Shown here: in pieces, positions 8,120 to 55,062 of the stretch
How positions within the stretch are numbered: the first letter of the stretch is position 1
How the letters are laid out: each line of letters begins with the position of its first letter
Origin: an uncultured bacterium
Lineage (GTDB): Bacteria > Fidelibacterota > Marinisomatia > Marinisomatales > JABMOV01
Reading direction: 5' to 3'
DNA: 64,000 bases
Assembly (NCBI GenBank): GCA_964344305.1
Contig: CAYFMT010000003.1
Location: forward strand, 71,790-135,789
The notes under the pieces: model-generated
Told to the model about the DNA's origin: nothing
What the model saw: the letters and a program-made list of their open reading frames with translations, nothing else
Database searches by the model: none
Program-made: the position numbers and the translations under genes

Positions 8120-8129
8120 AATGGCGACT

Positions 8130-31300: not shown

Positions 31301-31904
31301 CTGGTTCTACAGGTTGGCCACCATTTCCACCCTGCCAGTCCCACGAGATGTCTGTCCAGGTTCCTGTACCTGTATCAGGCACAGACGACACCATATCCAT
31401 GGAGCTGTCTGGTGACAGGTAAAAAAGCGGACTTGGATTAGCAAACGCTGTTCCTAACCAGCTGTCGCTTCCAAAGTTTGCTCCTTCATTCCCTGACAGG
31501 ATTATATCCATTCCGAGGGTATCAGACCCATTCATCCCGGTAGCGAAATTGAAATACAGTGAGTCGGGATGATTGGCGATTCGACCTGATCCGTAGAAGA
31601 CACTTCGGTTTTCCTCTCGAGAATTGCCAGACCGGTCTGTCCATCCCATGGATAAATCCGGCAGTGAAATTTTCCTCGTTTGAGGACGTATCTTATGTTG
31701 ATCAGTCGAGATTTTTTCAGCAGTCGAAAAATGCTGAAACAGGTTTGATTGGTCATGCATCAGTTTCATTTGCTGCATGTCTTGTTGAATGTCAACTGGA
31801 GACTGTTGGATTGCTTCTGTTTCCCCGGCCATCATCATAGAACAAAACACCATGATTGAAATACCCAGGACAGTTCTCATTGACTTCATGTATTTAGTAA
31901 ACAT
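28326..31904 (-). CDS. Large acidic T9SS-sorted secreted protein with repeated CarboxypepD_reg/Cna-B-like beta-sandwich modules
   Basis: The track ORF starts at GTG 31910. AAGGAGA abuts that GTG, so ATG 31904 (MFTKYMKSM..) is better spaced. Repeated GxEGxVxD..G.P...A.V modules (GVEGLVLDEMGTPIPDVEV, GIEGMVFDAATMDPLPIAWV, VDGMVFGYIYDQNGSPLADAQV, GIEGFVYDGETGTPIIGADV). FN3-like segment. C-terminal NYPNPFNPTTELRYDL...SGVYFIRM...KMMLIK. Confidence 0.85.
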   Translation of the reverse strand: MFTKYMKSMRTVLGISIMVFCSMMMAGETEAIQQSPVDIQQDMQQMKLMHDQSNLFQHFSTAEKISTDQHKIRPQTRKISLPDLSMGWTDRSGNSREENRSVFYGSGRIANHPDSLYFNFATGMNGSDTLGMDIILSGNEGANFGSDSWLGTAFANPSPLFYLSPDSSMDMVSSVPDTGTGTWTDISWDWQGGNGGQPVEPGNLWVVFTRTTHHYVLVEITGSAGLDWNNPWIEFNYAYQDDGSTDFEGSGGTTTDGIDVLINGMDDAIILQGEPFTITVDFPDGVYEADAEMWIDMDGDGILDPAMDFNLEEYHSIVDNGMDDENPAMGIYEEYIDDSDGPHMVSNLTLFYKAIEDSSSDVASLHIDPMESPFSFSGQVDPPMANIIIISFPMEGDDEESDEWMTVTDASGNFQNFVPDSGLWSLMAFDYINVTGGMVPDTSYFDIPVVDHLMGFDFYFYLPTSGVEGLVLDEMGTPIPDVEVHVKDEPYFSDTDEDGYFFIGLEEGTWDLGLHDWDLLPDFLVPQGITVDVFEDDTLWVEFMAYSTDNLIAGTVYLDGTPWGGVDMNGWSEIGWTSTMVNYNGYFELPVSSMADQFGGYHIGIDWDDLPPNIVVDSDPNPVFSGNMNADIYLSTVAGGIEGMVFDAATMDPLPIAWVNAHNNMDGFGTGTWEDGSYYLPLPNGEYTVNVGAEGYYLQTFEHVVIQNNTLQMDFYLDQFAVDGMVFGYIYDQNGSPLADAQVQVGNDSFWNEMWTGPDGYYEFDLPNGMYGLHVWKDGYIQGMELIDINNNNIQMDFYLQEIVTNAGIEGFVYDGETGTPIIGADVYAFGHFYEGYASTTTDGYFFMNVPSDTFHVIAHAPGFGNSQYEMVYVDEYDTASVVLEIYQPMHNPQIMAIFDVRNDQGKQVHVAWHPADTPGDMPWTEFSIWRLLQGDDFMLWEYITTVPYHGMEPYSVVAPTLIDSNHITGPDESYWSIFRVTAHTFNPWEFYDSEPFAGYSIDNLHPMPPVGLMADVQPGNGEVILSWRPALEEDFHHFSLYRSVDNGAFTELGMTGDTIFVDANVTVGHAYSYMVTTSDFNGNESDPSEVSTEILSIIIGAEIPDSYALSQNYPNPFNPTTELRYDLPEDGFVSVIVYNTLGREVDQLIHEHQPAGKYKVVWNADSHPSGVYFIRMMTDTYSETRKMMLIK

Positions 31905-32016
31905 CTTCACTCTCCTTGTCCGACGATTAAATGTGGAAAAACTTACCGGACTATCCGATTTGGGATTGTGATAATAGTCACTGTAAATCTGAGAGTATGG
32001 TTTTGTTTGATCTAGA

Positions 32017-37700: not shown

Positions 37701-39395
37701 TCAGTTTCCTACTTCATCAATCTGGGATGGGCTCATGAATTGATTAGCGTATTCCAGATAGATCTTCTTATCCACAAAAACATCAAACAAATCCGGATCA
37801 ATATGGGCATCATTTCGCATGAATCCAAGAATCCGCATGGCCTGGCTTAATGTCTTGCCCTTTTTATATGGACGATCCGCCGCCGTTAATGCTTCGAATA
37901 TATCTGCAATAGCCATGATCCTGGCCTGGACAGACATTTCATCTCTTGTGAGACCCATAGGATACCCCGTACCATCCAGTTTTTCGTGGTGACCTCCGGC
38001 ATATTCCGGTACACGTTGCAAATGTTTGGGATATGGAAGCTCATTCAACATATTGATGGTCTGAACAATATGGTCATTGATGACTTTGCGTTCTTCATGT
38101 GTCAAGGTCCCGCGCGCAATATGAAGATTGTATAACTCATTCTCATCGAGGATTGGTTTGTTTATTCCATTATCCTTCCATGTATACGAGGTGGCAATCT
38201 TAGTAACCCTGTCCTTAAGCTCCTGACTCATAAATTCACCACCCACATTGCATTCTGCAATGAAGTCAAAATCTTCCCTGATTTTCTGGATGGATTTTTT
38301 GAGATTTTTCCGAATGGTTCGAATACGTTTCTTTGTATCATCATCAGATAAGGAATCATCTCGTTCTGCCTTGAGTTGTGCTTTCAGGGCGCGAACTTCA
38401 GCATCCCTGACCAATACTTCAAAACGTACTTTAACCGTATCAATTCTATCGTATATCGTTTCCAGTTTTGTGGATTTATCCACCACATACTCCGGTGTAG
38501 TCACTTTTCCACAATCATGAAGCCATGCTGCAATCTTTAGTTCATACATTTCTTCTTCGGTAAAGCTTATATCTGCCATAGGACCATCATCCATGTTGTG
38601 CACGGCTTCTGCGAGCATAAGTGTTATGGCTGGAACTCGCTCACAATGACCACCTGTATATGGTGATTTTGCGTCAATAGCCGATGCAATCAATTTGATG
38701 AATGACTCGAATAAAACTTCAAGGTCCTTAATAAGGTTTTTATTCGTGATCACCACGGCAGCCTGACCCGCAAGACCTTCAACCAGTTTTTGAACCTCTT
38801 TTGAAAAAGATATAGTTTCTCCAGAACCAGAATCAGTCGCATTAAGCAATTGCAATACACCTATGATTTCGTCCTGGTGGTTTTTCAAAGGCACTGTTAA
38901 AAATGATTTAGATCTATAACCTGTTTTTTCATCGAATGACTTCGTCCCGCTAAAATCAAATCCTTCCACCTCGTAGGCATCTTCAATATTGACGGTTTCA
39001 CCTGTCAGACCAACATAAGCAGCATTCATGGATGTATTGGGCTTTCCATCTTCACCATAGAGACGAACAGGGTAAAACGGAATATCCTTTCCAGATGTGC
39101 CTCCCATATGGAAATTGAGTGAGTCAGTCATCATAATCTCGAATTTCAGCCGCTGGTCATCCGTCATCATATACAGGGTGCCACCATCCGCATTGGTGAT
39201 ACGCTTTGCTTCCAACAGAATCATTTCCAGCAATCGATCCATGTTTTTTTCTTTTGTTAAAGACAGACCGATCTCAGATAATCGGTTGATTTGTGAGTTC
39301 AGATACTGAATGTATTTGCGCAGGTTCTCCGGAGCCTTATCAAGGGCCGCTGAAATTTCTTCCGGAGACAAATGAAAATGGGAATTGTTCTTCAT
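37701..39395 (-). CDS. GAF-domain / HD-GYP-domain protein (putative c-di-GMP phosphodiesterase)
   Basis: 564 aa. GAF-like N-half (LLEMILLEAKRITNADGGTLYMM..). HD (AAWLHDCGKV) and HHEKLDGTGYP motifs. Confidence 0.85.
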   Translation of the reverse strand: MKNNSHFHLSPEEISAALDKAPENLRKYIQYLNSQINRLSEIGLSLTKEKNMDRLLEMILLEAKRITNADGGTLYMMTDDQRLKFEIMMTDSLNFHMGGTSGKDIPFYPVRLYGEDGKPNTSMNAAYVGLTGETVNIEDAYEVEGFDFSGTKSFDEKTGYRSKSFLTVPLKNHQDEIIGVLQLLNATDSGSGETISFSKEVQKLVEGLAGQAAVVITNKNLIKDLEVLFESFIKLIASAIDAKSPYTGGHCERVPAITLMLAEAVHNMDDGPMADISFTEEEMYELKIAAWLHDCGKVTTPEYVVDKSTKLETIYDRIDTVKVRFEVLVRDAEVRALKAQLKAERDDSLSDDDTKKRIRTIRKNLKKSIQKIREDFDFIAECNVGGEFMSQELKDRVTKIATSYTWKDNGINKPILDENELYNLHIARGTLTHEERKVINDHIVQTINMLNELPYPKHLQRVPEYAGGHHEKLDGTGYPMGLTRDEMSVQARIMAIADIFEALTAADRPYKKGKTLSQAMRILGFMRNDAHIDPDLFDVFVDKKIYLEYANQFMSPSQIDEVGN

Positions 39396-39528
39396 ATCAA
39401 TCTAGACCTTACTTGGATGAAATCTAGTAAGAGTTTTTCCCATTCTCAACAGATTGAACACTTGTTTTCTATGTGGATTCTTGGAAGTGGGAACGGATAC
39501 TATAATAAAAACCTTCCTATATTTTCAC

Positions 39529-42500
39529 ATGGAAAAACAGGCGCTACAGCAGATTAACCAATTCATTAAATCCGCTGAGAAAAATCAAATAATTCCTGCC
39601 GTCAGTCTTCTAGACATGGGTCAAATGCTTCTTGATCAGGAATCGGATATAGTTATCATCCATTCTTTTCTGGAACTGGGTCATTTTTCCATCATCAACC
39701 AGATATTTGCAGATTCACCTTACTTGAATGAATGGCTCGACCTCCTGGTGAAACTCATAAAAAAATCCGGTTACCATATAGGGTTCTGCCTGCAACAGCG
39801 TGTGGAGCGGTACGGGGACAAGCCACTATTTCTTCTGCCTCATGGCAGGGATGTGACACCTGTAACGTATTCAGATGCCTGGTCACAGATAGGCAGGATT
39901 GGATCATCCATCCATGCTATTTCAGTGAATGAATCAAGACCGGTGATTGGTATTTTTACACCGAATTCTCATCATGGTGCTATGGTGGATCTGGCATGTC
40001 TCAGTTTTGGTTTTCGCATCATTCCTATCCCGGCAAACGTGCCCCTGGAATACCTGAAATTCATCATCGAACATGGTGGGGTTACCCACATGTTTGCCGG
40101 AGGATCGACTCAGGTGAATCTTGTGTTTCAGTTACAAAAAATTGGACAATTGCCACACACCATTTTTTTACCAGGGGTAGAGGAGACTGAATCTGAAATT
40201 TTAAGCTGGGAGACTTTTCTGTCAGTATCCCCTGAAAATCTGTTTGATGCTCCGGTGCCATCGGATATGGATGAAACAGTATCGATTATGTATACCTCGG
40301 GAACAACAGCCAATCCAAAGGGGATCATCTTTGATCATACAAATATTATGTCTAAACGATTTGCCCGAGCCCTGGCCCTGCCAAAAATATCCAGTGATGA
40401 TACTTATCTATCGTATTTACCCCTGTTTCATACATTCGGGCGATTTCTTGAATTGACAGGTGCCATTTTCTGGGGAGCAACGTATACATTCGCTGAGTCC
40501 CCATCTTTCAAATCCCTTGTAAAGGATTTTTCTTTAGTTAAACCATCCATTTTTATCAGTATCCCAAAACGATGGCAACAGATTTATGATACTGTCATGG
40601 AATCCAATAATAATGCAACAACTTCAAAAGAGGATCTGAGAAAGTTTCTTCAAAAAACCACGGGGAAACATTTGAAGTGGGGATTGTCTGCTGCAGGGTA
40701 TCTTGACCCCGTTGTATTTACCTTTTTTCAAGATCATGGAATTCAATTGCTCAGTGGATACGGAATGACCGAAGCCACAGGTGGTATCCTTATGACACCA
40801 CCTGGAGATTATGTGCAGGATTCTGTGGGTAAGCCATTGCCTGGTATTGAAGCAAAGCTCGGCGAGGAAAATGAACTATTGATTGAAGGGCCGTACGTAT
40901 CCAAGGGATATTATCCAAAGTCTCCTGAGGGTACCTTCGTCGATGGCTGGTTCCGAACCGGTGATGTTTTTAGAGAAAAAAAGGGTCATTTCTATATCAT
41001 CGACCGAATAAAGGAGATATATAAGAATAGCCGCGGCCAGACCATCTCCCCTCAAAAAATTGAAAATATGTTCAAGGATTTTGATGCAGTAAAATCAGCA
41101 TTTCTGGTAGGGGATGGCCTCGAGTACAATACAGTGCTGATATATCCTGCCACGGATCAGATACCCAATGAGATTAATAGGGATGATCGTGACGCAATTC
41201 ACGAATACTTTAATACACTAGTACAATCCGTTAACAGCTTTCTACCATCCTATGAACGGGTGGTGAGTTACATAATCATTGAAAGAGATTTTTCAGCCGA
41301 AAAAGGAGAATTGACACCTAAAAACACCTATAAACGGAAAATTATCCTGTCTCATTTTTCCAGAGAGATTGAATCCATGTACAGGAAGGAGTATTCAGTC
41401 CTGTCCCATGAGCAGTGCGAAATCAGGTTCCCAAACTGGTTACTGAGAGAAAAAGGAATGCTGCGAACAGATTATGTCTGGGACGGAAAAACAATCTCAT
41501 GCGAAAAAACAAAAGAATCTCTTCATCTGGAATTCGATGAAAAAACCATACAGATTGGTGACTATATCTATGAGATATCCTACCCTGTGCTGGACCTGGA
41601 TACGTTTATTCGATTACCACAACTTTGGTTGGGAAACGGTCCATTTACTGAATTTGTTGGATCTTCGGTTTTTCGCATACATAAATCAGACAGGTCCACC
41701 AATGTTATCCTTATCGAGGAATCCATCTTCAATCAACAGGTTCAATCAATTACCCTGTCCCCTGCGTTTAAGACAGATGTTCGGAAGGATCGGTTTACAC
41801 TGGAAAATTTTCATATCTCAGCAAAAGTACTGCATCAGAAGCGTAGTGTTGACAACTCAACAGCCATGAATCATCTATCCCGGGCTATTCAGCTGGAAAC
41901 AGGACAGATGCAGCAAATTGCGAAAAATGTACTGCTAAGAATGCGATATCATCCTTCACCCAGATTGAGATTACGGGCTATTGAACAATTATTATCTAGT
42001 CTATCAGGAAATGAATTCATAAATCTATTCCTGGAAACTCATGATTTTGCATTCAATCTGGATTTAACTGACGAACTTGATATCGATGCCCGACTGCTCA
42101 CCAATAGTCATTTTCAGGCAATCCTATCTTACTTGAAGTATATGCGCTTCAATATCCATGAATTTGATGGAAAAGGATTGTCAATGGCCAGTGTGCTATT
42201 AGGATGTCTTGTACAATACTGTACGGACCATCCCGCTTCTTATATTTTTGCTCGGTCAGAGATAAACTGGTGGAAAATGTTATCTCCTGAGGAAAATATC
42301 CGATTACATGCCCGTAAAATGGAATATCAACTGACCCACGATTTAAGAAACTGGATAGGTGATAATACTCATATTGCAATCGATATGGACACCGGACGCG
42401 AGTATAACTGGTCCGATGTACTGGCATTCGACTCTACCGTTGAAGAGAAACACAGGGAGGTACTGACAAAGGTCTTCGTTGAAACATCCATCGTGAAAGA

Positions 42501-44136
42501 AACCATTTTTCTCATAACCAAAAGGCAATTGGTTCAACTCAATGATATTCCACAAAACGGTATCTGGATATCTCTGTTGGGACAGCGTCATGGTAAAAGT
42601 GTATTTCGTGTTCTAGTCCAGACCCGCTCTCAAAAGGCATTCAATTTTGTCATCAACTATAACGAACATTTGGATACATCATTTTTCGAAGACGAAATCC
42701 AGTGGCTTCTTGTGATGGGTTCAGATGAAAAAGGACGGAAACTTGTTGAAAAGTTTGGGGGTTACTGGTCCGAATATTCACTATATACTGAAGAATATAT
42801 CCCTGGTGAAACGCTCCACCAATACCTGGATCGACACCGAGATGAGATTGGCAAGAAACAGGCAATAGATAGATGGCAAATGCGCTGGCTTCACTTTATA
42901 TGGAATGGATGCATGGCCTACATTGATTTCTGGTACAGAACCGGGTATACACTTGGAATTCAATCTCCATCACCAAAGAATTTGATCATTCCTGAATATG
43001 ATTATACTTCAGGCACCCGCCTTATTTCAATTTCCGGCAGGGATGCCCAGACGGATATCACCTCCCTGTTATTTGGTTTGTACGAACAGTTTATTCTTGA
43101 AACGGAATCTGAGTTTACCGGGCTTGAACATATGTCTGACTGGGAAGTGATCTTTACAGCACTTATTCAAGTCATATCTGTTAAATCCGGATTGATGTTG
43201 CTGAATGAATTCAAACAGGATATTGAAAAAGATAAATGGAAAATCAGAGCCAAAAGTCATGGCTTAAACTCAAATAGAATATCACGGTATATTTCAGATA
43301 TCGATGATTTTGGAGTATTGACAAAGCAGGTGACATTTGCTGCCCTAAGGTTTAATCGATGGATGGAGCTAAATCAGGAAGCTACCAAGGAAGCTCGTGG
43401 AACCGTACTCCTGGATTTATACAAGGATTATCATTTAAGGGATCTCATTGATGATTACCCTGAAACCAGAATTCGCTTCTTCCTGTTGACATGCTTCAAG
43501 AATGCAAGCTCAATGCTTACCAATAAACTTTTACGATTGCAGAAGGATGTGAGGGCAAGGAGAATTTCTTTGGAGGACCTGGATTTTCAAATTCAAGGTT
43601 TGATTGAAACCATGGACCTGTCTGAAGAGGATGAATACTTCCTGACACGCCTGTTGTTTGAGCATGTTCAGGCGTCGGATTTTGGGAAACTCGTAACATG
43701 GGACACGGGACATCAAGGTCATTTAGATCTTATCAGTATTGTAGAGGATTCAATGTCAAACCGATACAGAATTCGACCTGCTTTCCATCCGAAAGAAATT
43801 GCTGCTTTTTATGGTATTCTATCTAAAGCAAATATGAAGACATCTTTTCATCAGAAACACCAATTCCTCCTGCTGATTACCTCATCGGACCACATCATAG
43901 GAGGTATTTACTGGAAGGATGCAGGAAATAAAACGGCTTATCTTGAACGTATTGTTATTTCCTATGAGTACAGGAAGAAGAATTTAAGTACCACATTGCT
44001 GAGTGAATTTTTCCAGCGACTTATTCACCTGAATTTTCAGCATGTTACAGTTGGATATTTCCAGGCAGGTCTATTTTATAAGCATGGATTTTCTATAGAT
44101 AAACAATTTGGCGGACTTGTAAAACACTTGAAATAA
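39529..44136 (+). CDS. Giant fusion protein: AMP-forming long-chain acyl-CoA synthetase domain + ~750-aa unknown region (possible kinase-like fold) + C-terminal GNAT-like acyltransferase
   Basis: The track ORF starts at TTG 39454; the first ATG is 39529 (MEKQALQQ). ACSL motifs MYTSGTTANPKG, SGYGMTEATGG, GWFRTGDV, IIDRIKEIYK, ELTPKNTYKRK. C-terminal IIGGIYWKD..AYLERIVISYEYRKKNLSTTLLSEFFQRL..HGF is GNAT-like. One uninterrupted frame. Confidence 0.75.
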   Translation: MEKQALQQINQFIKSAEKNQIIPAVSLLDMGQMLLDQESDIVIIHSFLELGHFSIINQIFADSPYLNEWLDLLVKLIKKSGYHIGFCLQQRVERYGDKPLFLLPHGRDVTPVTYSDAWSQIGRIGSSIHAISVNESRPVIGIFTPNSHHGAMVDLACLSFGFRIIPIPANVPLEYLKFIIEHGGVTHMFAGGSTQVNLVFQLQKIGQLPHTIFLPGVEETESEILSWETFLSVSPENLFDAPVPSDMDETVSIMYTSGTTANPKGIIFDHTNIMSKRFARALALPKISSDDTYLSYLPLFHTFGRFLELTGAIFWGATYTFAESPSFKSLVKDFSLVKPSIFISIPKRWQQIYDTVMESNNNATTSKEDLRKFLQKTTGKHLKWGLSAAGYLDPVVFTFFQDHGIQLLSGYGMTEATGGILMTPPGDYVQDSVGKPLPGIEAKLGEENELLIEGPYVSKGYYPKSPEGTFVDGWFRTGDVFREKKGHFYIIDRIKEIYKNSRGQTISPQKIENMFKDFDAVKSAFLVGDGLEYNTVLIYPATDQIPNEINRDDRDAIHEYFNTLVQSVNSFLPSYERVVSYIIIERDFSAEKGELTPKNTYKRKIILSHFSREIESMYRKEYSVLSHEQCEIRFPNWLLREKGMLRTDYVWDGKTISCEKTKESLHLEFDEKTIQIGDYIYEISYPVLDLDTFIRLPQLWLGNGPFTEFVGSSVFRIHKSDRSTNVILIEESIFNQQVQSITLSPAFKTDVRKDRFTLENFHISAKVLHQKRSVDNSTAMNHLSRAIQLETGQMQQIAKNVLLRMRYHPSPRLRLRAIEQLLSSLSGNEFINLFLETHDFAFNLDLTDELDIDARLLTNSHFQAILSYLKYMRFNIHEFDGKGLSMASVLLGCLVQYCTDHPASYIFARSEINWWKMLSPEENIRLHARKMEYQLTHDLRNWIGDNTHIAIDMDTGREYNWSDVLAFDSTVEEKHREVLTKVFVETSIVKETIFLITKRQLVQLNDIPQNGIWISLLGQRHGKSVFRVLVQTRSQKAFNFVINYNEHLDTSFFEDEIQWLLVMGSDEKGRKLVEKFGGYWSEYSLYTEEYIPGETLHQYLDRHRDEIGKKQAIDRWQMRWLHFIWNGCMAYIDFWYRTGYTLGIQSPSPKNLIIPEYDYTSGTRLISISGRDAQTDITSLLFGLYEQFILETESEFTGLEHMSDWEVIFTALIQVISVKSGLMLLNEFKQDIEKDKWKIRAKSHGLNSNRISRYISDIDDFGVLTKQVTFAALRFNRWMELNQEATKEARGTVLLDLYKDYHLRDLIDDYPETRIRFFLLTCFKNASSMLTNKLLRLQKDVRARRISLEDLDFQIQGLIETMDLSEEDEYFLTRLLFEHVQASDFGKLVTWDTGHQGHLDLISIVEDSMSNRYRIRPAFHPKEIAAFYGILSKANMKTSFHQKHQFLLLITSSDHIIGGIYWKDAGNKTAYLERIVISYEYRKKNLSTTLLSEFFQRLIHLNFQHVTVGYFQAGLFYKHGFSIDKQFGGLVKHLK

Positions 44137-44321: not shown

Positions 44322-47300
44322 TTATTTGATGTAAAGCATTTTCTTGGTGCTAGTGAATTGACCAGCTTTGATCTGGTAAAGATATACACCGGCACTTACT
44401 TCACGTCCATAATCATCTGTTGCATCCCATTTAACATATCGGTGTCCGGCATCCTGTGATTCATTCACAAGTGTACGTACCTGACGTCCCATAAGGTCAA
44501 ACACTGATATGGAAACAGTCGCTTTTTCTTTTAAGTCATATTGAATCAATGTGGTTGGGTTGAACGGATTTGGATAGTTTTGATGCAATGCGAATTCTTC
44601 TGGAATTACCGTCATATCATTGTCATCCACGCCAACGCCACCAGTTTCCATAATACCGTATCCTACTTTCCAGGAGAATAATGGTTGGACATTGATATCA
44701 GCAGCACTGACCATATCAAAGTACATCAGTACATTGTCATCACCAGCTACCTGTCCCTGAACAGAAAGAATTGATCCATCACCTGGAACAATACCAGTGG
44801 AAAATTCATATCCAAGTGCTCCGAATGAACCATCTTCCTGTTCCCCGGAACTTCCATCCATGGTTCCACTTGCAAAACGACCTGTCGGTGTCATGCTAAG
44901 GACTGTGTAATTCATAGGAACATCCAGCATGCGCACATCAAAAACAAACACAGGTACAGTGTTATCCAATGCTACATCAAATGTAACCACATTGTTTTCG
45001 TCTGGAGCAGTTACATTTTCTATTGAGAATAATGCTTCCGGTGTTCCAGCATAGAGATGTGATTCCACCACTTCTGTGTGCATTGGGAGATAGTTGATAT
45101 CAGATACGACCAATTCATTGATATTTGGCAGAAGCTGAATTTCTGTTCCAGGAGGAGTATCTCCATTAATCAATAGCGTGATATCAGCCAATTTTCCAGT
45201 TCCTGCTGGAATCGGGTTCTGCAATGTATTATCAAACATGATTAACCTGACCTCACCATCAACAAAGGACAATGAAGTAGTCCAGGAAGAGAAGTCAATA
45301 TAGTCTGTTGGTGTGAGGAAGTAAGGTGTGATATGATTGGGTGTACCTGAGAAGAACACCTGAATGCCATAAATATCCTGGGTTGAACTCAGAACAAATG
45401 GTACATCAATTAACGCCCCTGGATCACCAATTCCATGACCAAAGAACAATGTCTGTGTTTCGATGGTAACGTGGAATTCACCAGCTTCAGATGTCCATGG
45501 CATTTCATTGTTGCTTAAATCAAGAACACTGGCGGTTGTGAAATCAACAGTTGCAATTCCTTCTTCGTCGCTGAATCCGCGAACGATAATCTGACAGATG
45601 GATCCATCACCAGCTGCGAGGGATGTTCCAAGGCTTATACCTGTGATAGCCATGTCTCCACTTGGAAGGTCCACAACGTCCAAACTCCATGTTGAGGTCC
45701 GACCAGTTGATAAAATGGCTTCTGCAATGAAATAGTCAGGAATATCAGAAATTTCAAAATAGAAGAAGCTTATTTCTGTTTCATTTTCCAGGTAGATATC
45801 CAGTGTATCCGTGAACCCAGATAATGCGGCCCCATCACTGATAGATAATTCGATCCATTCCAGAGGTGTTGCCATCACTTCGTTTGAAGGTCCTGACTCA
45901 CCACCAGGTGTGTACTCAGCTGTGACATAATAGTAATAATCAACACTATTGGAAACATCCGTGTCAAGGTAATCTGTAACATCTGGTCCAAATGTATTCA
46001 GCAGTGAGAAACTCTGGTTATTCCCAGCTGAGCGATACAGGTTAAATCCAGATAATTCCCTGCTGGCATTTTCTGGTTCAGGTGAGATTGGATTTTCCCA
46101 ATCCACTTTCATTTCGTAACTGATACCATTTGGATACTGATCCACTACATCAGCCTTATCAGCTGTAATGACCCATTGACCTAATTCATTGAAATCGAAA
46201 TGAACGACACGATCAATCTGCGCACCGGAGAAGTTCATGGAAATATCATCCACTGCCCATCCGGACGACCAGCCGCCATTATCGTTTGAATGGAATGCCA
46301 CGTAGAGTTGAGGTGTACCGGCATACCCGGATAAATCAACAGTTTCATTCACCCATTCAGCAGACGCAGTAATCGAAGCGACTTCTGTGAAATTGTTACC
46401 ATCTGTGCTGACTTCGATATGGGCAGTCTGTCCATATGCGCCATCAAAATACGATTCAAAGTTTAATGTAATCATCTGTGCACCACCGGCATTAATGGAT
46501 GGTGTAATCAGGTAGTCAACTGAACCATCATCATCAGCAGCATCGTCGTTGGAACACGCGTAAAGAGTATGAGGTGGTATTGTCCACCAATCACTGGAAC
46601 CATCAGCCGTCACAAACCAGCCAATGGCTGAGTTTGTTGTCATAGTCCAACTGTCTGGTATAACACCTGCTTCAAAATCTTCTCCAAAACTTTCTGGGAT
46701 AGGTCCATAAGGCGCATCCCACATTAATGGGATTTGGGCATCCAGACCGGACACTGCCTCCAGGTTATGTGGTTCTTCAATGTATCCAGGAGTCACATGT
46801 ACTACACCGGAATCTGCTGCAGCAATCCAGTAGGATCCACCAATTCCATCAACAGCAACAGGTTCAAAAATTTCAACATTCACATAGCCTTCAAACGCGT
46901 TGTAATGAACTTCAAAATCAAGGGTAAGAACGGCACCAGTACCAACGGCGATATCCGTATTATTGGTATTATAGACAAGAATTCTTGTGCCAGTGGCCAC
47001 TTCTGATGTTTCCACAGTAAACCCATCGGTTCTCGTGGTCGTTGCTGCAGATAAGAAGTCCAGATCATTCGGAAAATCTTTTACATCAAGTTGAAACCCA
47101 CCAACGGGACCATCATTTTCCATATCCAGGGCGATAGTGACGGTTTCAAGAACATCAGCTTCCGCATCTCCTAAATCAAATGATACAACTTCACCAATCT
47201 GTACGCCGCCAGCAGAGCCGGAAGATGCGAGGAGGGATCCACTACCGTCACTGACAACTAGACCAGAAATAGACATATCAATTACAGCGGAAAGGACATC

Positions 47301-47663
47301 AGCCCCATCAAATCCCAACCACATGATTGTATCAGACCCAGCAGGGATTGTACCTGCACTGGCAGGGTTGTAGAACACAACACGTGTTGTCATGTCTGAG
47401 AGCTGGTTGAATTCACCAACGAATTCTGTGTATTCCCCGGTGCTAATAGAGGTCATGGATATCCATGCAGGATCCAGTGATAAATCAAATTGGACGCCAC
47501 CTACTTCATCTGTTGGACTATTTATTACAACCGGAACCCAGATATCTTCCGTGTAGCCATCCACTTCTGTGTCAAGTACATCCAGTGTAACCTGACCCAT
47601 CGTGGGTACAAGCGCAAATAGTATGATCAGTGTCAGTGATAATTTCTTCCAGATAATCCTCAT
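44322..47663 (-). CDS. Large T9SS-sorted surface protein with several cohesin-like modules, a MAM/choice-of-anchor-J-like domain and FN3
   Basis: The track ORF starts at TTG 47678. ATG 47663 (MRIIWKKLSLTLIILFALV) has GGAGGGAG upstream. Cohesin-like signatures VGGVQFDLSLDP and VGGFQLDVKDFP, plus three further similar modules. C-terminal NYPNPFNPTTLIQYDL..VFDLMGRQV..AGVYLYQI..KMLYIK. Confidence 0.8.
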   Translation of the reverse strand: MRIIWKKLSLTLIILFALVPTMGQVTLDVLDTEVDGYTEDIWVPVVINSPTDEVGGVQFDLSLDPAWISMTSISTGEYTEFVGEFNQLSDMTTRVVFYNPASAGTIPAGSDTIMWLGFDGADVLSAVIDMSISGLVVSDGSGSLLASSGSAGGVQIGEVVSFDLGDAEADVLETVTIALDMENDGPVGGFQLDVKDFPNDLDFLSAATTTRTDGFTVETSEVATGTRILVYNTNNTDIAVGTGAVLTLDFEVHYNAFEGYVNVEIFEPVAVDGIGGSYWIAAADSGVVHVTPGYIEEPHNLEAVSGLDAQIPLMWDAPYGPIPESFGEDFEAGVIPDSWTMTTNSAIGWFVTADGSSDWWTIPPHTLYACSNDDAADDDGSVDYLITPSINAGGAQMITLNFESYFDGAYGQTAHIEVSTDGNNFTEVASITASAEWVNETVDLSGYAGTPQLYVAFHSNDNGGWSSGWAVDDISMNFSGAQIDRVVHFDFNELGQWVITADKADVVDQYPNGISYEMKVDWENPISPEPENASRELSGFNLYRSAGNNQSFSLLNTFGPDVTDYLDTDVSNSVDYYYYVTAEYTPGGESGPSNEVMATPLEWIELSISDGAALSGFTDTLDIYLENETEISFFYFEISDIPDYFIAEAILSTGRTSTWSLDVVDLPSGDMAITGISLGTSLAAGDGSICQIIVRGFSDEEGIATVDFTTASVLDLSNNEMPWTSEAGEFHVTIETQTLFFGHGIGDPGALIDVPFVLSSTQDIYGIQVFFSGTPNHITPYFLTPTDYIDFSSWTTSLSFVDGEVRLIMFDNTLQNPIPAGTGKLADITLLINGDTPPGTEIQLLPNINELVVSDINYLPMHTEVVESHLYAGTPEALFSIENVTAPDENNVVTFDVALDNTVPVFVFDVRMLDVPMNYTVLSMTPTGRFASGTMDGSSGEQEDGSFGALGYEFSTGIVPGDGSILSVQGQVAGDDNVLMYFDMVSAADINVQPLFSWKVGYGIMETGGVGVDDNDMTVIPEEFALHQNYPNPFNPTTLIQYDLKEKATVSISVFDLMGRQVRTLVNESQDAGHRYVKWDATDDYGREVSAGVYLYQIKAGQFTSTKKMLYIK

Positions 47664-47872
47664 GGACTCCCTCCACAACTATGTCTATTTGTAAAACCTT
47701 TGGTTTTCTGTAAAACCTTCTGAAATAATGAAGGCATTTTACCAGTATAATCGCTCTTAAGCAATAAATGAAAGTAATCATATTCTAGTCTAAATCCAGC
47801 AAAAAAATAAAGATCATACATAGCACTATAAAACTATGACCTAACGCACAAGATCACGGGATCACATGGACC

Positions 47873-50929: not shown

Positions 50930-51370
50930 TTATCCATCAAGTTCTTTTTGTTCATTCATTTCTCTGTATACCGCATCCAGGATTCCATTGATGAACCCGG
51001 GACTCTCATCACTACTGTACTCCCTTGCAATTTCTATGGCCTCTGCAATGGACACTTTTGGTGGAACAGATTCCATCAAGTAAATTTCACAAATAGCCAA
51101 CATCAAGATAAGCCGATCCAGCCTGGCAACCCGTTCAAACCGCCAGTTCTCAAGGAATTTCTGTATTTTCTCTTCAGCCCAGGCCTGATGGTCCAACGTC
51201 TTCGAAAATAAGTCCGATACAAACTGACTATTTTTGTTATCAAAGTCGTATCGTTCAAGAATGTCCTCCAGAACTTTTTCTGCATCATCCTGGGATATTT
51301 CCAGGGCAAAAAGAGCCTGGAGGACAGCCTCTCGCGCAATTCGTCTGGGATGCTTATTAGACGTTGTCAC
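50930..51370 (-). CDS. nusB: Transcription antitermination factor NusB
   Basis: 146 aa. RRIAREAVLQALFALE...; typical NusB length; abuts the secA start. Confidence 0.9.
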   Translation of the reverse strand: MTTSNKHPRRIAREAVLQALFALEISQDDAEKVLEDILERYDFDNKNSQFVSDLFSKTLDHQAWAEEKIQKFLENWRFERVARLDRLILMLAICEIYLMESVPPKVSIAEAIEIAREYSSDESPGFINGILDAVYREMNEQKELDG

Positions 51371-52469
51371 GCTTGCTCATGGTATTCTTCCGTGGAAGAT
51401 ACACATTTTTCAGTTTTGCCAGGTCTTCCATTCTTTTTTCTGCTACCCGGTTCCCAGCAATATGCGTTGGAATATTTTCTTCGTCAGATACTTTAAATAT
51501 CTTCAGCAGCGTATCGTACACACCATCTGCCTGACTGAAAGCCCGTTCGCGATTATAGCCTTCAATTTCATTAGCAACATTGATCAATCCACCACTGTTG
51601 ATGGCATAATCAGGGGCATATAGGATTCCCTTATCCTTCACTTTTTGGCCATGATCAGATTCATTTTCAAGCTGATTGTTTGCTGCACCAGCAATGATGG
51701 AGCATTTCAGCTGATTTAGTGTTTTATCATTAATGGTTGCACCGAGTGCACAAGGAGCATAGATATCCACATCAAGACCATAGATTTCATCCAGTTCAAC
51801 CACTGTGGCTCCGAATTCATTTTTAACCGCTTCAAGTGATGCCTTGTCTACATCAGAAACATAGAGTTCAGCGCCACTATCATGCAAATGTTTGCAGAGA
51901 TGATATCCTACATGCCCAACCCCTTGAACAGATACTTTTAAACCAGTAAGACTACCCTTTCCAAGTTGATGTTTTACAGCAGCCTGCATACCGACAAATA
52001 CACCGTAAGCCGTCACAGGTGATGGATCACCGCTTCCGCCAAGTGCCCTTGAGATACCCGTTACATATTGGGTTTCCATTCGAACCCATTCCATGTCCCG
52101 GACACTTGTACCCACATCTTCTGCAGTGATATATCTTCCACCTAATCCTTCAATAAATCTTCCAAATGAACGGAAAAGCAGTTCCGATTTCTCCGTCTTT
52201 GCATCACCAATGATAATGGATTTTCCACCACCAAGATTCAGACCGGCGAGGGCAGCCTTGTAGCTCATTCCCCTTGATAATCGAAGGACATCCCGCATGG
52301 CTTCCTGTTCTGTTGCATATGGAAGCATGCGACACCCCCCCAGTGCAGGTCCTATGGTCGTATCATGAATGGCAATAATGGATTTCAGTCCTGTATCTGG
52401 ATCATTACAAAATACCACCTGTTCGTGGCTCTTCTTGTTCATGGATTGAAACACGTCTGACATGATCAT
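51357..52469 (-). CDS. ldh: Leucine (Glu/Leu/Phe/Val-family) dehydrogenase
   Basis: 370 aa. IIAIHDTTIGPALGGCRM, catalytic-Lys block LNLGGGKSIIIGD, Rossmann VQGVGHVGYHL. Confidence 0.85.
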   Translation of the reverse strand: MIMSDVFQSMNKKSHEQVVFCNDPDTGLKSIIAIHDTTIGPALGGCRMLPYATEQEAMRDVLRLSRGMSYKAALAGLNLGGGKSIIIGDAKTEKSELLFRSFGRFIEGLGGRYITAEDVGTSVRDMEWVRMETQYVTGISRALGGSGDPSPVTAYGVFVGMQAAVKHQLGKGSLTGLKVSVQGVGHVGYHLCKHLHDSGAELYVSDVDKASLEAVKNEFGATVVELDEIYGLDVDIYAPCALGATINDKTLNQLKCSIIAGAANNQLENESDHGQKVKDKGILYAPDYAINSGGLINVANEIEGYNRERAFSQADGVYDTLLKIFKVSDEENIPTHIAGNRVAEKRMEDLAKLKNVYLPRKNTMSKRDNV

Positions 52470-52479
52470 TCCTTTCAGG

Positions 52480-53616: not shown

Positions 53617-53620
53617 GACC

Positions 53621-54805: not shown

Positions 54806-55062
54806 GTACATGTCCTTCCTGTTTAGGTTTGGGATGGGAATTGGTATAAACAGGTTTTCCTGGTTGGATAGGAATATCCAATCCAGTTGAAAACCGGCAA
54901 GAAAACATATGTTCAATAAACGTGTACATCAGCAATACATCTACGTCGTATCCTGATAGAAATAATCCCTATCAGGGAACCATTTTAGCGAAGCAATAAG
55001 TTACCAATTATCCATGGTTAACATGAAAGCTTTTTCACGCTTTACCAGGTCATTTTTATCTG

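What the first reader, a model, noticed from the sequence alone, without database searches (positions are those of the whole stretch)
39529..44136. 1535-aa single-polypeptide fusion of an AMP-forming acyl-CoA synthetase, a ~750-aa uncharacterised region and a GNAT-like acyltransferase
The N-terminal third has every long-chain acyl-CoA synthetase core motif (MYTSGTTANPKG, SGYGMTEATGG, GWFRTGDV, IIDRIKEIYK, ELTPKNTYKRK). The last ~95 residues look like a GNAT core (IIGGIYWKD...AYLERIVISYEYRKKNLSTTLLSEFFQRL...HGF). Between them (~41400-43860) lies a long region I cannot assign, in one uninterrupted frame.

The known bifunctional acyl-CoA synthetase/GNAT proteins (Pat type) use the NDP-forming synthetase fold, not this AMP-forming one.

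Two hypotheses follow. One is substrate channelling: fatty acid to acyl-CoA, then N-acylation of an amine or amino acid, as in lipoamino-acid synthesis. The other is built-in acylation control of the synthetase itself, since AMP-forming synthetases are classically regulated by GNAT acetylation of their A10 lysine.

The gene is divergently transcribed from the GAF/HD-GYP gene across a 133-nt gap that contains a perfect TATAAT at 39501-39506.
Basis: partly seen in the sequence, partly recalled or inferred. Interest (0 to 1): 0.7.

Follow-up and report, generated by a model that had tools for sequence, protein, structure and literature searches.

The report
Acyl-CoA synthetase–pseudokinase–GCN5-like acyltransferase fusion protein
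This is a real, intact 1,535-residue bacterial protein from a widespread but unstudied family that joins an acyl-CoA-making enzyme, through a helical scaffold and a probably inactive kinase-like domain, to a histone-acetyltransferase-like domain, so it may be a new kind of bacterial protein-acylation enzyme.

Summary
Positions 39529-44136 (+) hold one uninterrupted 1,535-codon gene with an AMP-forming acyl-CoA synthetase at the N-terminus and a GNAT at the C-terminus.

It is not an assembly artefact. The same three-part protein recurs in at least 411 clusters (50% identity) across eight or more phyla: Marinimicrobia, Calditrichota, Ignavibacteriota, KSB1, Bacteroidota, Gemmatimonadota, Acidobacteriota, Eisenbacteria and Myxococcota, including cultured Anaeromyxobacter terrae.

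Structure prediction resolves the "unassignable" ~780 residues into:
- a small beta domain
- a HEAT-like helical solenoid
- a kinase-like fold that lacks the catalytic Lys/Asp/Asp (a probable pseudokinase), with a conserved helical extension
- a ~20-residue flexible linker

The GNAT is specifically GCN5-like (family profile vs Tetrahymena GCN5, E = 1e-12). It is not Pat-, MtPat- or AcuA-like.

Synthetase catalytic residues are 99-100% conserved, but long-chain specificity is unproven.

Recurrent neighbours are citrate synthase (22 of 80 loci, six or more phyla) and GAF/HD-GYP (15 of 22 Marinimicrobia loci).

Most likely function: a synthetase coupled to a tethered protein-lysine acyltransferase. 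Built-in self-regulation is the main rival. No literature or curated family describes the protein. I rate it a new variant of a known kind, and the function is untested.

The parts
39529..44136 (+). Complete CDS, 1,535 aa plus stop: synthetase, beta domain, HEAT-like solenoid, kinase-like domain, linker and GNAT
   Evidence: ORF, start codon, stop-free probability. (more than 120 collinear homologs).
39529..39789 (+). N-terminal extension (aa 1-87). Poorly conserved, no family match.
   Evidence: no Pfam hit. (17-51% identity to homologs, the lowest of all segments).
39790..40914 (+). ANL (AMP-binding) N-terminal domain, aa 88-462. Contains A3 MYTSGTTANPKG (aa 254-265, window 40288-40323) and A5 GYGMTEATGG (aa 410-419).
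   Evidence: PF00501, E = 1.3e-56. (K264 in 73/74; E415 in 74/74).
41029..41388 (+). ANL C-terminal subdomain (AMP-binding_C_3), aa 501-620, with the A10-like segment E594-L-T596-P-K598-N-T-Y-K602-R603-K. The A7 motif GWFRTGD (473-479) and A8 motif IIDRIKEIYKNSRGQTISP (490-508) lie just upstream.
   Evidence: PF23562, E = 5e-13. (D479, R493, K495, K499, E594, T596 and R603 in 74/74; K598 in 73/74; K602 variable).
41401..41703 (+). Small beta-rich domain directly after the synthetase (aa 625-725). G677, Y681 and N703 are invariant; P635, W637, P697, W700 and F709 are about 96% conserved.
   Evidence: pLDDT ~90, beta strands. (conservation). No fold match obtained.
41758..42360 (+). Alpha-helical solenoid, HEAT/ARM-like (aa ~744-944)
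   Evidence: all-helical, pLDDT ~90. (weak HEAT/HEAT_2/ARM Pfam hits in 3-4 of 25 members). (Vps34, PI3K, mTOR and LRRK2 helical-plus-kinase proteins are the top Foldseek hits).
42358..43128 (+). Kinase-like fold core (aa ~944-1200): beta1-beta3, alphaC, beta4-beta5, hinge EEYIPGETL, alphaE, and loop SPSPKNLIIPEYDY. It lacks the canonical beta3 Lys, HRD Asp and DFG Asp, so it is a probable pseudokinase.
   Evidence: pLDDT 90.8, pTM 0.88. (283 PDB hits at E <= 1e-3; Bud32 TM 0.50-0.64, Eph/EGFR/JAK, corramycin phosphotransferase, PsiK). (residue distributions). (no sequence-level kinase match).
43129..43665 (+). Helical extension packed on the kinase-like C-lobe (aa ~1201-1379). It carries the best-conserved patch outside the synthetase: R1274, W1278 (100%), N1282, Y1301, R1314, T1321 (99%), F1323.
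   Evidence: helices, pLDDT above 90. (conservation).
43666..43728 (+). Predicted disordered linker (aa 1380-1400) that tethers the GNAT
   Evidence: the only segment with pLDDT below 50: fragment residues 756-776.
43735..44133 (+). GCN5-like GNAT domain (aa ~1403-1535). Conserved D1407, R1416, E1423 (99%), G1458-G1459, beta4 acid E1473 (E/D in 69/74) and R1497. Motif A reads RKKNLS here, against R-x-x-G-x-G/S/A in 80% of the family.
   Evidence: Pfam. (GCN5 TM 0.62-0.66). (family profile vs Tetrahymena GCN5, E = 1.1e-12)..
37701..39395 (-). Divergent neighbour: GAF + HD-GYP (HD_5) protein. A recurrent but not universal partner.
   Evidence: Pfam. (divergent upstream in 15 of 22 Marinimicrobia loci; also in 2 Gemmatimonadota). 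(near the distant member P0254). Absent in L001.
39501..39506 (+). TATAAT hexamer in the 133-nt intergenic gap. Present, but not supported as a promoter.

Best explanation
The gene encodes a cytosolic multidomain enzyme of a widespread, uncharacterised family. A catalytically intact AMP-forming acyl-CoA synthetase is permanently coupled to a GCN5-like protein acyltransferase.

Proposed mechanism:
1. The N-terminal ANL domain adenylates a carboxylate and makes its CoA thioester. The chain length is unknown and the sequence is ACSL-like. Motif conservation supports this step; no activity was tested.
2. The acyl-CoA is used locally by the C-terminal GNAT, which hangs on a ~20-residue flexible linker, to N-acylate lysines of a protein. 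The target may be partner proteins held by the HEAT-like and pseudokinase platform, the enzyme's own synthetase domain, or both. This step is inferred.
3. The beta domain, HEAT-like solenoid and kinase-like module have lost the kinase catalytic residues. They act as a scaffold and/or ligand sensor that sets when the two activities are coupled. This step is inferred.

The net effect would be to convert carboxylate, ATP and CoA availability into protein acylation at the acetyl-CoA/TCA node.
For: Both catalytic ends are always present.
- All full-length members, down to 25% identity, keep AMP-binding, AMP-binding_C_3 and GNAT.
- Shorter hits are truncated gene calls that start inside the synthetase.

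The synthetase looks active.
- K264, E415, D479, R493, K495, K499, E594, T596, K598 and R603 are 99-100% conserved in 74 sequences.
- The synthetase is the most conserved segment of the protein.

The GNAT looks active and protein-directed.
- It passes the Pfam cut-offs.
- Motif A is canonical in 80% of members, and a beta4 Glu/Asp is kept in 93%.
- In the window's own clade it is the best-conserved domain: 77% identity to P0003 against 63% overall.
- The family profile hits Tetrahymena GCN5 at E = 1.1e-12, and also yeast Gcn5, KAT2A and PCAF. The next solved GNAT is at 1e-6, and Pat, MtPat and AcuA are absent from the top 60. Foldseek TM to GCN5 is 0.62-0.66.

The middle looks like a scaffold or sensor.
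- The models are confident (pLDDT 87 and 91).
- The kinase fold is supported by 283 PDB hits, but the beta3 Lys, HRD Asp and DFG Asp are missing.
- The only disordered segment is the linker before the GNAT.

Genomic context points to central carbon metabolism and signalling.
- Citrate synthase, an acetyl-CoA consumer, is next to the gene in 22 of 80 loci in six or more phyla, in two different arrangements.
- Signalling genes recur nearby: GAF/HD-GYP and PAS/REC histidine kinases.

The protein is probably cytosolic: it has no signal peptide or membrane helix.
Against: - No biochemical data exist. The acid substrate, the acyl donor used by the GNAT and the acceptor are all unknown.
- An ACSL-like synthetase may make long-chain acyl-CoA, whereas GCN5-type GNATs prefer acetyl or other short acyl groups. 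Such a mismatch would favour the self-regulation rival, in which the GNAT uses cellular acetyl-CoA.
- In the window's own clade the first Gly of the CoA-binding motif A is replaced: RKKNLS, with N, H or D at that position.
- The kinase-fold call rests on a predicted structure only. TM-scores are modest (at most 0.64) and there is no sequence-level match.
- Gene context is not conserved in many lineages, and this window has no citrate synthase.
Confidence: 0.38

Rival explanations
1. Self-regulated synthetase. The protein's job is simply acyl-CoA synthesis. The tethered GNAT uses cellular acetyl-CoA to acetylate the synthetase's own catalytic lysine in the A10 region (K598 or K602) and switch it off. 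The HEAT and pseudokinase module is the sensor that decides when. This would be a fusion of a regulator with its substrate, equivalent to the Pat-Acs, AcuA-AcsA and MtPat-FadD pairs.
For: - Acetylation of the A10 lysine of AMP-forming synthetases, including FadD-type enzymes, by GNATs is the best-established role of bacterial multidomain GNATs (PMC4053389, PMC11255334, PMC11254643).
- The GNAT is of the protein-KAT type and sits on a flexible linker.
- K598 is 99% conserved.
- A large non-catalytic module fits a sensor role.
- Signalling genes lie nearby.
Against: - The GNAT profile does not resemble Pat, MtPat or AcuA.
- The A10 region lacks the PxxxxGK motif that those enzymes recognise. The position expected for the canonical Lys (602) is K/R/N-variable.
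- A simple on/off switch would not obviously need an invariably fused ~780-aa module.
- No deacetylase is a conserved neighbour.
Confidence: 0.27
2. Small-molecule N-acylation by substrate channelling. A fatty acid is converted to acyl-CoA, and the GNAT then acylates an amino acid or amine to give a lipoamino acid or similar metabolite.
For: - The synthetase product belongs to the same class as the GNAT donor.
- Both domains are always fused.
- The synthetase has ACSL-like motifs.
Against: - The GNAT is most similar to GCN5 histone/protein acetyltransferases, not to small-molecule or N-acyl-amino-acid synthase-type enzymes.
- The protein has no membrane association.
- No lipid-biosynthesis genes are conserved neighbours.
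- A 780-aa HEAT and pseudokinase platform is atypical for a biosynthetic enzyme.
Confidence: 0.12
3. Pat-like sensor acetyltransferase. The GNAT acetylates other proteins, such as citrate synthase or other metabolic enzymes, using cellular acetyl-CoA. The synthetase domain serves mainly as a metabolite-binding regulatory domain, like the inactive NDP-forming domain of Pat, rather than as a supplier of acyl-CoA.
For: - There is an architectural analogy with class I KATs (PMC11254643).
- The GNAT is GCN5-like.
- Citrate synthase is a recurrent neighbour.
Against: Every catalytic residue of the synthetase is 99-100% conserved, and it is the most conserved part of the protein. Pat's synthetase-like domain, by contrast, lacks activity. 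That pattern argues for real catalysis.
Confidence: 0.13
4. Artefact: an assembly or frameshift fusion of separate genes, or a non-functional ORF.
For: None found. Read-level support could not be examined.
Against: - An identical protein occurs on 4 contigs from three sources.
- More than 120 collinear homologs exist, and the middle region keeps a conserved length of 759-798 aa.
- The same architecture occurs in eight or more phyla, including an isolate genome.
- The chance of a stop-free frame of this length is about 6e-39.
Confidence: 0.01

Closest known systems
Class I (type I/II) bacterial lysine acetyltransferases: Pat / PatZ / YfiQ / Pka
   Same: Both are large multidomain proteins that combine an acyl-CoA-synthetase-type domain with a C-terminal GNAT and are linked to the acetyl-CoA node.
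   Different: Pat's large domain has the NDP-forming (succinyl-CoA-synthetase-like) fold and lacks activity (PMC11254643). Here the domain is AMP-forming (ANL fold) with all catalytic residues conserved. Pat has no HEAT or kinase-like module. Pat's GNAT is not among the top 60 PDB matches of this family's GNAT profile.
GNAT-synthetase regulatory pairs: AcuA-AcsA, MtPat (Rv0998)-Acs/FadD, SePat-Acs
   Same: In both cases a GNAT and an AMP-forming acyl-CoA synthetase act together. [quoted passage not shown]
   Different: In those systems the two are separate polypeptides, the sensor is a cNMP-binding, ACT or NDP-forming domain, and the target is a PxxxxGK A10 lysine. Here everything is one chain, the candidate sensor is a HEAT and pseudokinase module, and the A10 region reads ELTPKxT/SxxRK.
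GCN5/PCAF (KAT2) histone acetyltransferase catalytic domain
   Same: This is the best sequence-profile match of the GNAT domain. Tetrahymena GCN5 scores E = 1.1e-12 over about 105 residues, including GCN5's C-terminal W-x-GYIKD segment. Yeast Gcn5, KAT2A and PCAF are also hit. Foldseek TM is 0.62-0.66.
   Different: GCN5 is eukaryotic, works within SAGA/ADA complexes and carries a bromodomain. The conserved beta4 acid here lies two residues after the position aligned to GCN5's catalytic Glu. In the window, motif A reads RKKNLS.
ACSL/FadD-type acyl-CoA synthetases (PF00501 + PF23562; COG1022) and carboxylic acid reductase A-domains
   Same: It has the ANL fold and the A3, A5, A7 and A8 motifs. 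It also has the FACS-signature-like segment DGWFRTGDVFREKKGHFYIIDRIKE and an AMP-binding_C_3 C-subdomain.
   Different: Scores are far below every NCBIfam curated cut-off (best 164 bits against 476). The nearest PDB relatives reach only E ~1e-25. The protein carries a ~910-aa C-terminal extension. The substrate is unknown.
Kinase-fold proteins with a helical solenoid (Vps34/PI3K/mTOR, LRRK2) and minimal atypical kinases (Bud32/RIO); pseudokinases in general
   Same: The predicted topology matches: five-stranded N-lobe, alphaC, hinge and helical C-lobe, preceded by a helical solenoid. Vps34, PI3K and mTOR are the top hits for the 911-aa model. Bud32 and Eph/EGFR are the top hits for the isolated domain.
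   Different: There is no sequence-level similarity. The canonical beta3 Lys, HRD Asp and DFG Asp are absent. TM-scores are modest: 0.2-0.3 for the PI3K-type proteins and at most 0.64 for Bud32.

Membership tests
ANL superfamily (AMP-forming acyl-CoA synthetases) | Pfam AMP-binding domain scoring above the gathering cut-off | tested here: met
   PF00501 scores 192.5 bits against a cut-off of 29.9. PF23562 scores 49.9 against 20.8.
ANL superfamily (AMP-forming acyl-CoA synthetases) | Core motifs: A3 P-loop (T/S-G-T-T-G-x-P-K-G), A5 (G-Y-G-x-T-E), A7 (T-G-D) and A8 (D-R-x-K) | tested here: met
   MYTSGTTANPKG, GYGMTEATGG, GWFRTGD and IIDRIKEIYK are all present. K264 is conserved in 73/74; E415, D479, R493 and K495 in 74/74.
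ANL superfamily (AMP-forming acyl-CoA synthetases) | Catalytic A10 lysine in the C-terminal subdomain | tested here: inconclusive
   K598 is 99% conserved. K602, the position expected from the canonical GK, is K/R/N-variable. No structural superposition was possible.
Long-chain fatty-acid--CoA ligase (NCBIfam equivalogs and subfamilies) | Score above the curated NCBIfam cut-off | tested here: not met
   The best hit is PRK06187 at 164 bits against a cut-off of 476. FadD11 scores 148 against 950.
GNAT superfamily | Pfam GNAT domain above the gathering cut-off, and a GNAT fold | tested here: met
   Acetyltransf_10 scores 30.4 against 23.6. Acetyltransf_1 scores 24.5 against 20.7. Foldseek TM to GNAT structures is 0.6-0.67.
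GNAT superfamily | Motif A CoA-pyrophosphate loop, Q/R-x-x-G-x-G/A | tested here: inconclusive
   The family has G at the first position in 59 of 74 members and G/S/A at the second. The window reads R-K-K-N-L-S, with Gly replaced by Asn. The backbone conformation may be kept, but this was not tested.
GCN5/KAT2-type protein acetyltransferases | Specific sequence similarity to the GCN5 HAT core beyond generic GNAT similarity | tested here: met
   The family profile hits Tetrahymena GCN5 at E = 1.1e-12 (51 bits). The next solved GNAT is at 1e-6.
GCN5/KAT2-type protein acetyltransferases | Catalytic Glu in beta4 at the GCN5 position, a bromodomain, and protein-lysine activity | tested here: inconclusive
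   The conserved E/D1473 (69/74) lies 2 residues after the aligned position. No bromodomain was found. Activity cannot be tested with these tools.
Pat-type (class I) lysine acetyltransferases | NDP-forming acyl-CoA synthetase-like domain fused to the GNAT | tested here: not met
   The synthetase domain is AMP-forming (PF00501). No NDP-forming or succinyl-CoA-ligase family is hit. The definition comes from PMC11254643.
Protein kinase-like superfamily | Bilobal kinase fold | tested here: met
   This rests on a predicted structure only. The model has pLDDT 90.8 and pTM 0.88. It gives 283 PDB hits at E <= 1e-3; every hit in the displayed top 50 is a kinase-fold protein, with TM up to 0.64.
Protein kinase-like superfamily | Catalytic residues (beta3 Lys, HRD/catalytic Asp, DFG Asp), or membership of a kinase sequence family | tested here: not met
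   There is no conserved Lys in beta3. The catalytic-loop segment reads SPSPKN and the DFG position reads RLISIS. No kinase Pfam hit occurs in 25 members. No PDB kinase is hit by the profile.
Anti-phage defence systems (PADLOC) | Match to any defence-protein model | tested here: not met
   No families are hit at E <= 0.01.

The most novel reading that the evidence does not exclude
The family could be a self-sufficient bacterial protein-acylation machine. Its parts list parallels the eukaryotic Acs2 to SAGA axis: an acyl-CoA synthetase that supplies the donor, a HEAT-repeat and PI3K-like pseudokinase scaffold (as Tra1/TRRAP is in SAGA), and a GCN5-type acetyltransferase, all in one chain.

It would write acyl marks on target proteins, possibly citrate synthase or other central-metabolism enzymes, using acyl-CoA it makes itself. 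That would be a sixth, unrecognised architectural type of bacterial lysine acyltransferase. It might also be evolutionarily related to the GCN5 lineage rather than merely analogous.
Probability: 0.15. Interest if true: 0.85.

Novelty: new variant of a known kind. Interest (0 to 1): 0.62.

Why it matters
Bacterial protein acylation is currently explained by five GNAT architecture types (PMC11254643). None contains an active AMP-forming synthetase or a kinase-like module.

This family is present in at least 411 sequence clusters and eight or more phyla. These include the abundant deep-ocean Marinimicrobia and soil Acidobacteriota, Gemmatimonadota and Myxococcota. It is labelled only "GNAT family N-acetyltransferase".

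If the synthetase feeds the GCN5-like domain, the family would be the first example of an acyltransferase that makes its own acyl-CoA donor. Carboxylate availability would then be linked directly to protein modification at the acetyl-CoA/TCA node.

It would also add a large bacterial pseudokinase and HEAT scaffold of about 780 aa, for which no Pfam model exists, to the catalogue of signalling modules.

A cultured carrier, Anaeromyxobacter terrae, makes the hypotheses experimentally testable.

Tried and rejected
Searches and tests that led nowhere:
- **Sequence assignment of the middle region.** Pfam and NCBIfam on the whole protein and on segments, phmmer and two family profiles against PDB sequences, and Pfam on 25 diverse members at E <= 1 gave nothing. 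The only hits were weak HEAT matches and a spurious NB-ARC hit at the G-loop-like HGKS.
- **A word-indexed homolog search with the middle alone** found only fragments of the same family.
- **Natural variants lacking the synthetase or the GNAT.** The 900-1,200-aa hits are truncated gene calls that start inside the synthetase.
- **The sigma-70 promoter claim.** The TATAAT has no -35 partner and promoter-like sites are not enriched. No terminator follows the gene.
- **Citrate synthase in this window.** None was found.
- **Anti-phage defence membership.** No match.
- **Literature.** Five full-text searches found no description of this architecture.

Ideas considered and rejected:
- NRPS-like or siderophore adenylation enzyme: there is no carrier-protein domain.
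- Active kinase: the catalytic residues are absent.
- Walker-A NTPase: the spacing of GQRHGKS is wrong, the predicted structure there is a beta-hairpin, and the motif is not conserved.

Full report
**1. Observation**

The window carries one uninterrupted ORF on the plus strand. The ORF listing gives 39454-44136. At the window's composition (43% GC) a stop-free run of 1,535 codons has a probability of about 6e-39.

Pfam confirms both ends:
- AMP-binding, aa 88-462, E = 1.3e-56
- AMP-binding_C_3, aa 501-620, E = 5e-13
- GNAT models over aa 1417-1521, above their gathering cut-offs

Nothing significant covers aa ~625-1400 in Pfam, NCBIfam or PDB sequences.

The 133-nt gap to a divergent GAF + HD-GYP gene (37701-39395) and the TATAAT at 39501-39506 are both real. 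The hexamer has no -35 partner, and promoter-like matches in the region are not above shuffled expectation (13 against 15.3).

The ATG at 39529 matches the N-termini of the closest homologs. The public gene call for the identical protein (P0001, 1,549 aa) starts at a GTG 14 codons upstream.

**2. Not an artefact, and not rare**

- The identical protein is on four contigs from NCBI, Logan and ENA.
- More than 120 full-length homologs (43-64% identity, 1,515-1,549 aa) share the architecture. They come mostly from Marinimicrobia/Fidelibacterota MAGs and are named only "GNAT family N-acetyltransferase" or "long-subunit acyl-CoA synthetase/GNAT".
- The middle region has a tightly conserved length of 759-798 aa.
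- An exhaustive profile search with the middle region alone, against 1.84 billion representatives, found 411 clusters at E <= 1e-3 and 171 at E <= 1e-30. Most are 1,470-1,710 aa with the middle at the same position.
- Distant members (25-35% identity) keep AMP-binding, AMP-binding_C_3 and GNAT.
- Shorter hits begin inside the synthetase and are truncated gene calls, so no natural variant lacking either enzymatic end was seen.
- A scan of GTDB species genomes returned 80 near-full-length loci. They come from Marinimicrobia, Calditrichota, Ignavibacteriota, KSB1, Bacteroidota, Gemmatimonadota, Acidobacteriota, Eisenbacteria and Myxococcota, including the isolate Anaeromyxobacter terrae SG22. The tool reported at least 580 relatives, but some of those may be plain synthetases.

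**3. Anatomy of the "unassignable" middle**

An AlphaFold2 model of aa 625-1535, built with a 40-sequence alignment, is confident: mean pLDDT 87 and pTM 0.71. The only disordered stretch is aa 1380-1400.

Foldseek against the PDB put Vps34, PI3K, mTOR and LRRK2 first. These are helical solenoid plus kinase-domain proteins, at E = 1e-5 to 1e-4 but with low global TM. GCN5-type GNATs followed, with TM 0.62-0.66.

The kinase-like part was remodelled alone (aa 944-1379; pLDDT 90.8, pTM 0.88). It gave 283 PDB hits at E <= 1e-3, and every hit in the displayed top 50 is a kinase-fold protein: Bud32 (TM 0.50-0.64), Eph/EGFR/JAK/FGFR kinases, corramycin phosphotransferase and PsiK. The secondary-structure order is the canonical one: beta1-3, alphaC, beta4-5, hinge, long alphaE, then short strands.

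The chain therefore reads:
- N-terminal extension (aa 1-87)
- ANL synthetase (aa 88-620)
- beta domain (aa 625-725)
- HEAT-like solenoid (aa ~744-944; weak HEAT/ARM Pfam hits in a few members)
- kinase-like fold (aa ~944-1200) with a helical extension (aa ~1200-1379)
- flexible linker (aa 1380-1400)
- GNAT (aa ~1403-1535)

**4. Which parts look catalytic**

I aligned 74 full-length members (25-63% identity to the window).

*Synthetase.* This is the most conserved segment. K264 (A3), E415 (A5), D479 (A7), R493/K495/K499 (A8), E594, T596, K598 and R603 are conserved at 99-100%. The position expected for the canonical A10 "GK" lysine (602) varies (K 29, R 26, N 15 of 74), so which lysine is catalytic remains open.

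*Kinase-like domain.* There is no conserved beta3 Lys. The catalytic-loop segment reads SPSPKN, with no HRD Asp. The DFG position reads RLISIS. Only R1027, G1077, N1151, D1158 and S1167 are reasonably conserved. It is best read as a pseudokinase. The strongest conservation in this module lies in the helical extension: R1274, W1278 (100%), N1282, Y1301, R1314, T1321 (99%). This is unexplained.

*Beta domain.* G677, Y681 and N703 are invariant.

*GNAT.* It keeps D1407, R1416, E1423 (99%), G1458-G1459, a beta4 acid (E/D1473 in 69/74) and R1497. Motif A is canonical (R-x-x-G-x-G/S/A) in 80% of members. In the window's clade it reads RKKNLS, with N, H or D at the first Gly. Even so, the GNAT is the best-conserved domain between the window protein and its closest homolog (77% against 63% overall), so it is under constraint.

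**5. What kind of GNAT and what kind of synthetase**

A 21-sequence profile of the GNAT domain hits Tetrahymena GCN5 at E = 1.1e-12 (51 bits). The match covers about 105 residues and includes GCN5's C-terminal W-x-GYIKD segment (here FGGLVK). The next solved GNAT scores 1e-6. Yeast Gcn5, KAT2A and PCAF are also hit. Pat/PatZ, MtPat and AcuA are not in the top 60. This favours a protein-lysine acceptor over a small amine.

The synthetase is ACSL-like by its motifs and its AMP-binding_C_3 subdomain. It scores far below every curated NCBIfam cut-off (best 164 bits against 476). Its nearest solved relatives are carboxylic acid reductase A-domains, feruloyl/fatty-acyl-CoA synthetases and luciferases, at only E ~1e-25 to 1e-21. 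Chain-length specificity is therefore unknown.

**6. Genomic context**

The gene looks monocistronic in the window. A GAF/HD-GYP gene lies divergently upstream and a T9SS cargo protein lies convergently downstream.

I clustered the flanking ORFs of 82 loci, identified the clusters with Pfam and measured spacings. Two neighbours recur.

*Citrate synthase (PF00285, E = 3e-95).* It appears in 22 of 80 loci across six or more phyla, usually immediately adjacent. It is co-directional upstream in Ignavibacteriota and Bacteroidota (gaps 80-640 nt). It is convergent downstream in Gemmatimonadota, Acidobacteriota and unclassified MAGs (gaps ~0-475 nt).

*GAF + HD-GYP.* It is divergent upstream in 15 of 22 Marinimicrobia loci (gaps 42-407 nt). 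It is also present in two Gemmatimonadota loci and near a 25%-identity member.

One distant member overlaps, by 4 nt, the end of two PAS/REC histidine-kinase genes. Other contexts are unrelated. A Marinimicrobia homolog at 47% identity keeps the surrounding synteny but lacks the GAF/HD-GYP gene. This window has no citrate synthase.

**7. Mechanism**

What is shown:
- two enzyme domains with intact signatures are invariably fused
- a large folded, non-catalytic-looking module lies between them
- the GNAT is tethered by a flexible linker and is GCN5-like
- the protein is probably cytosolic, with no signal peptide or membrane helix

What is inferred as the best model: the synthetase makes an acyl-CoA that the tethered GNAT uses to acylate protein lysines, on partners held by the HEAT and pseudokinase platform and/or on itself. 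The platform acts as scaffold or sensor. The citrate synthase association points to the acetyl-CoA/TCA node.

The main rival is a self-regulated synthetase, in which the GNAT acetylates the A10 lysine with cellular acetyl-CoA. It is supported by the well-known Pat/AcuA/MtPat-synthetase relationship (PMC4053389, PMC11255334). It is also supported by a possible mismatch between an ACSL-like product and a GCN5-like donor preference.

Lipoamino-acid synthesis is disfavoured by the GCN5-like nature of the GNAT and by the lack of membrane or lipid-pathway context.

A Pat-like role with a merely regulatory synthetase domain is disfavoured by the near-perfect conservation of the synthetase catalytic residues.

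**8. Comparison with what is known, and novelty**

The 2024 review of bacterial acetylation lists five KAT architecture types. The multidomain ones contain an inactive NDP-forming synthetase-like domain or a small effector-binding domain (PMC11254643). None has an AMP-forming synthetase or a kinase-like module.

Five full-text searches found no description of this architecture. No defence-system model matches it.

The parts are familiar (ANL, HEAT, kinase fold, GNAT) and the closest concept, a synthetase-type domain plus a GNAT, is known. I therefore rate it a new variant of a known kind rather than categorically new. The family is large, phylogenetically broad and functionally unannotated, and its ~780-aa middle module has no sequence-family model.

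The most novel reading not excluded is a single-chain bacterial counterpart of the eukaryotic Acs2 to SAGA (Tra1 pseudokinase + Gcn5) logic.

**9. Verdict**

- The function is unknown but experimentally tractable.
- Interest is 0.62.

Noticed in passing
window 39487-39531: The public gene call for the identical protein (P0001, 1,549 aa) starts at GTG 39487. Homolog N-termini support the ATG at 39529, 14 codons downstream. With the GTG start, the TATAAT hexamer would lie inside the coding sequence.
   Followed up: partly
window 43339-43497 (aa ~1271-1323): Outside the synthetase, the most conserved patch of the whole family lies in the helical bundle behind the kinase-like C-lobe: R1274, W1278 (100%), N1282, Y1301, R1314, T1321 (99%). 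It is not in the nucleotide pocket. Its function is unknown; it could be a docking or ligand site.
   Followed up: partly
window 41401-41703 (aa 625-725): A small beta-rich domain directly follows the mobile synthetase C-subdomain. G677, Y681 and N703 are invariant and P635, W637, P697, W700 and F709 are about 96% conserved. No fold match or family was obtained.
   Followed up: partly
L025, L028, L029, L031, L033, L039, L049, L054, L059 (upstream); L024, L038, L042, L047, L063, L066 (downstream): Citrate synthase is the immediate neighbour of the family gene in Ignavibacteriota, Bacteroidota, Gemmatimonadota, Acidobacteriota and unclassified MAGs. It occurs in two different orientations. It is absent from this window.
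   Followed up: yes
L085:2499-6004: In one distant member (P0262, 25% identity), the gene start overlaps by 4 nt the end of a pair of PAS/REC hybrid histidine-kinase genes. This suggests co-transcription with signalling proteins.
   Followed up: no
L086:3330-5156: In another distant member's locus (P0230), a stand-alone 608-aa AMP-binding + AMP-binding_C_3 synthetase lies 845 nt upstream on the same strand. It may be a paralog of the fused domain.
   Followed up: no
window 5105-8176 and 13104-16259 (minus strand), with 2991-5105 and 11023-13095: There are two SusC-like TonB-dependent receptors (CarboxypepD_reg + Plug). Each is followed by a ~700-aa ORF with no Pfam hit, possibly a divergent SusD-like partner.
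   Followed up: no
window 569-2899, 28326-31910 and 44322-47678 (minus strand): Three large proteins carry T9SS C-terminal sorting domains: NHL/SGL; three CarboxypepD_reg domains; and cohesin/MAM/FlgD-Ig. A weak PorV-like ORF lies at 9442-10464.
   Followed up: no
window 51357-54916 (minus strand): A Glu/Leu/Phe/Val dehydrogenase, an acyl-CoA dehydrogenase and a thiolase form a cluster, which suggests branched-chain amino-acid or fatty-acid degradation. The acyl-CoA dehydrogenase and thiolase are syntenic with the homologous Marinimicrobia locus L001, which has an Aminotran_4 gene at the dehydrogenase position.
   Followed up: partly
window 21298-22488 and 25613-26731 (plus strand): Two ORFs of 396 and 372 aa have no Pfam match. 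They lie within a plus-strand gene cluster that also holds a family-2 glycosyltransferase and an MFS/BT1-like transporter.
   Followed up: no
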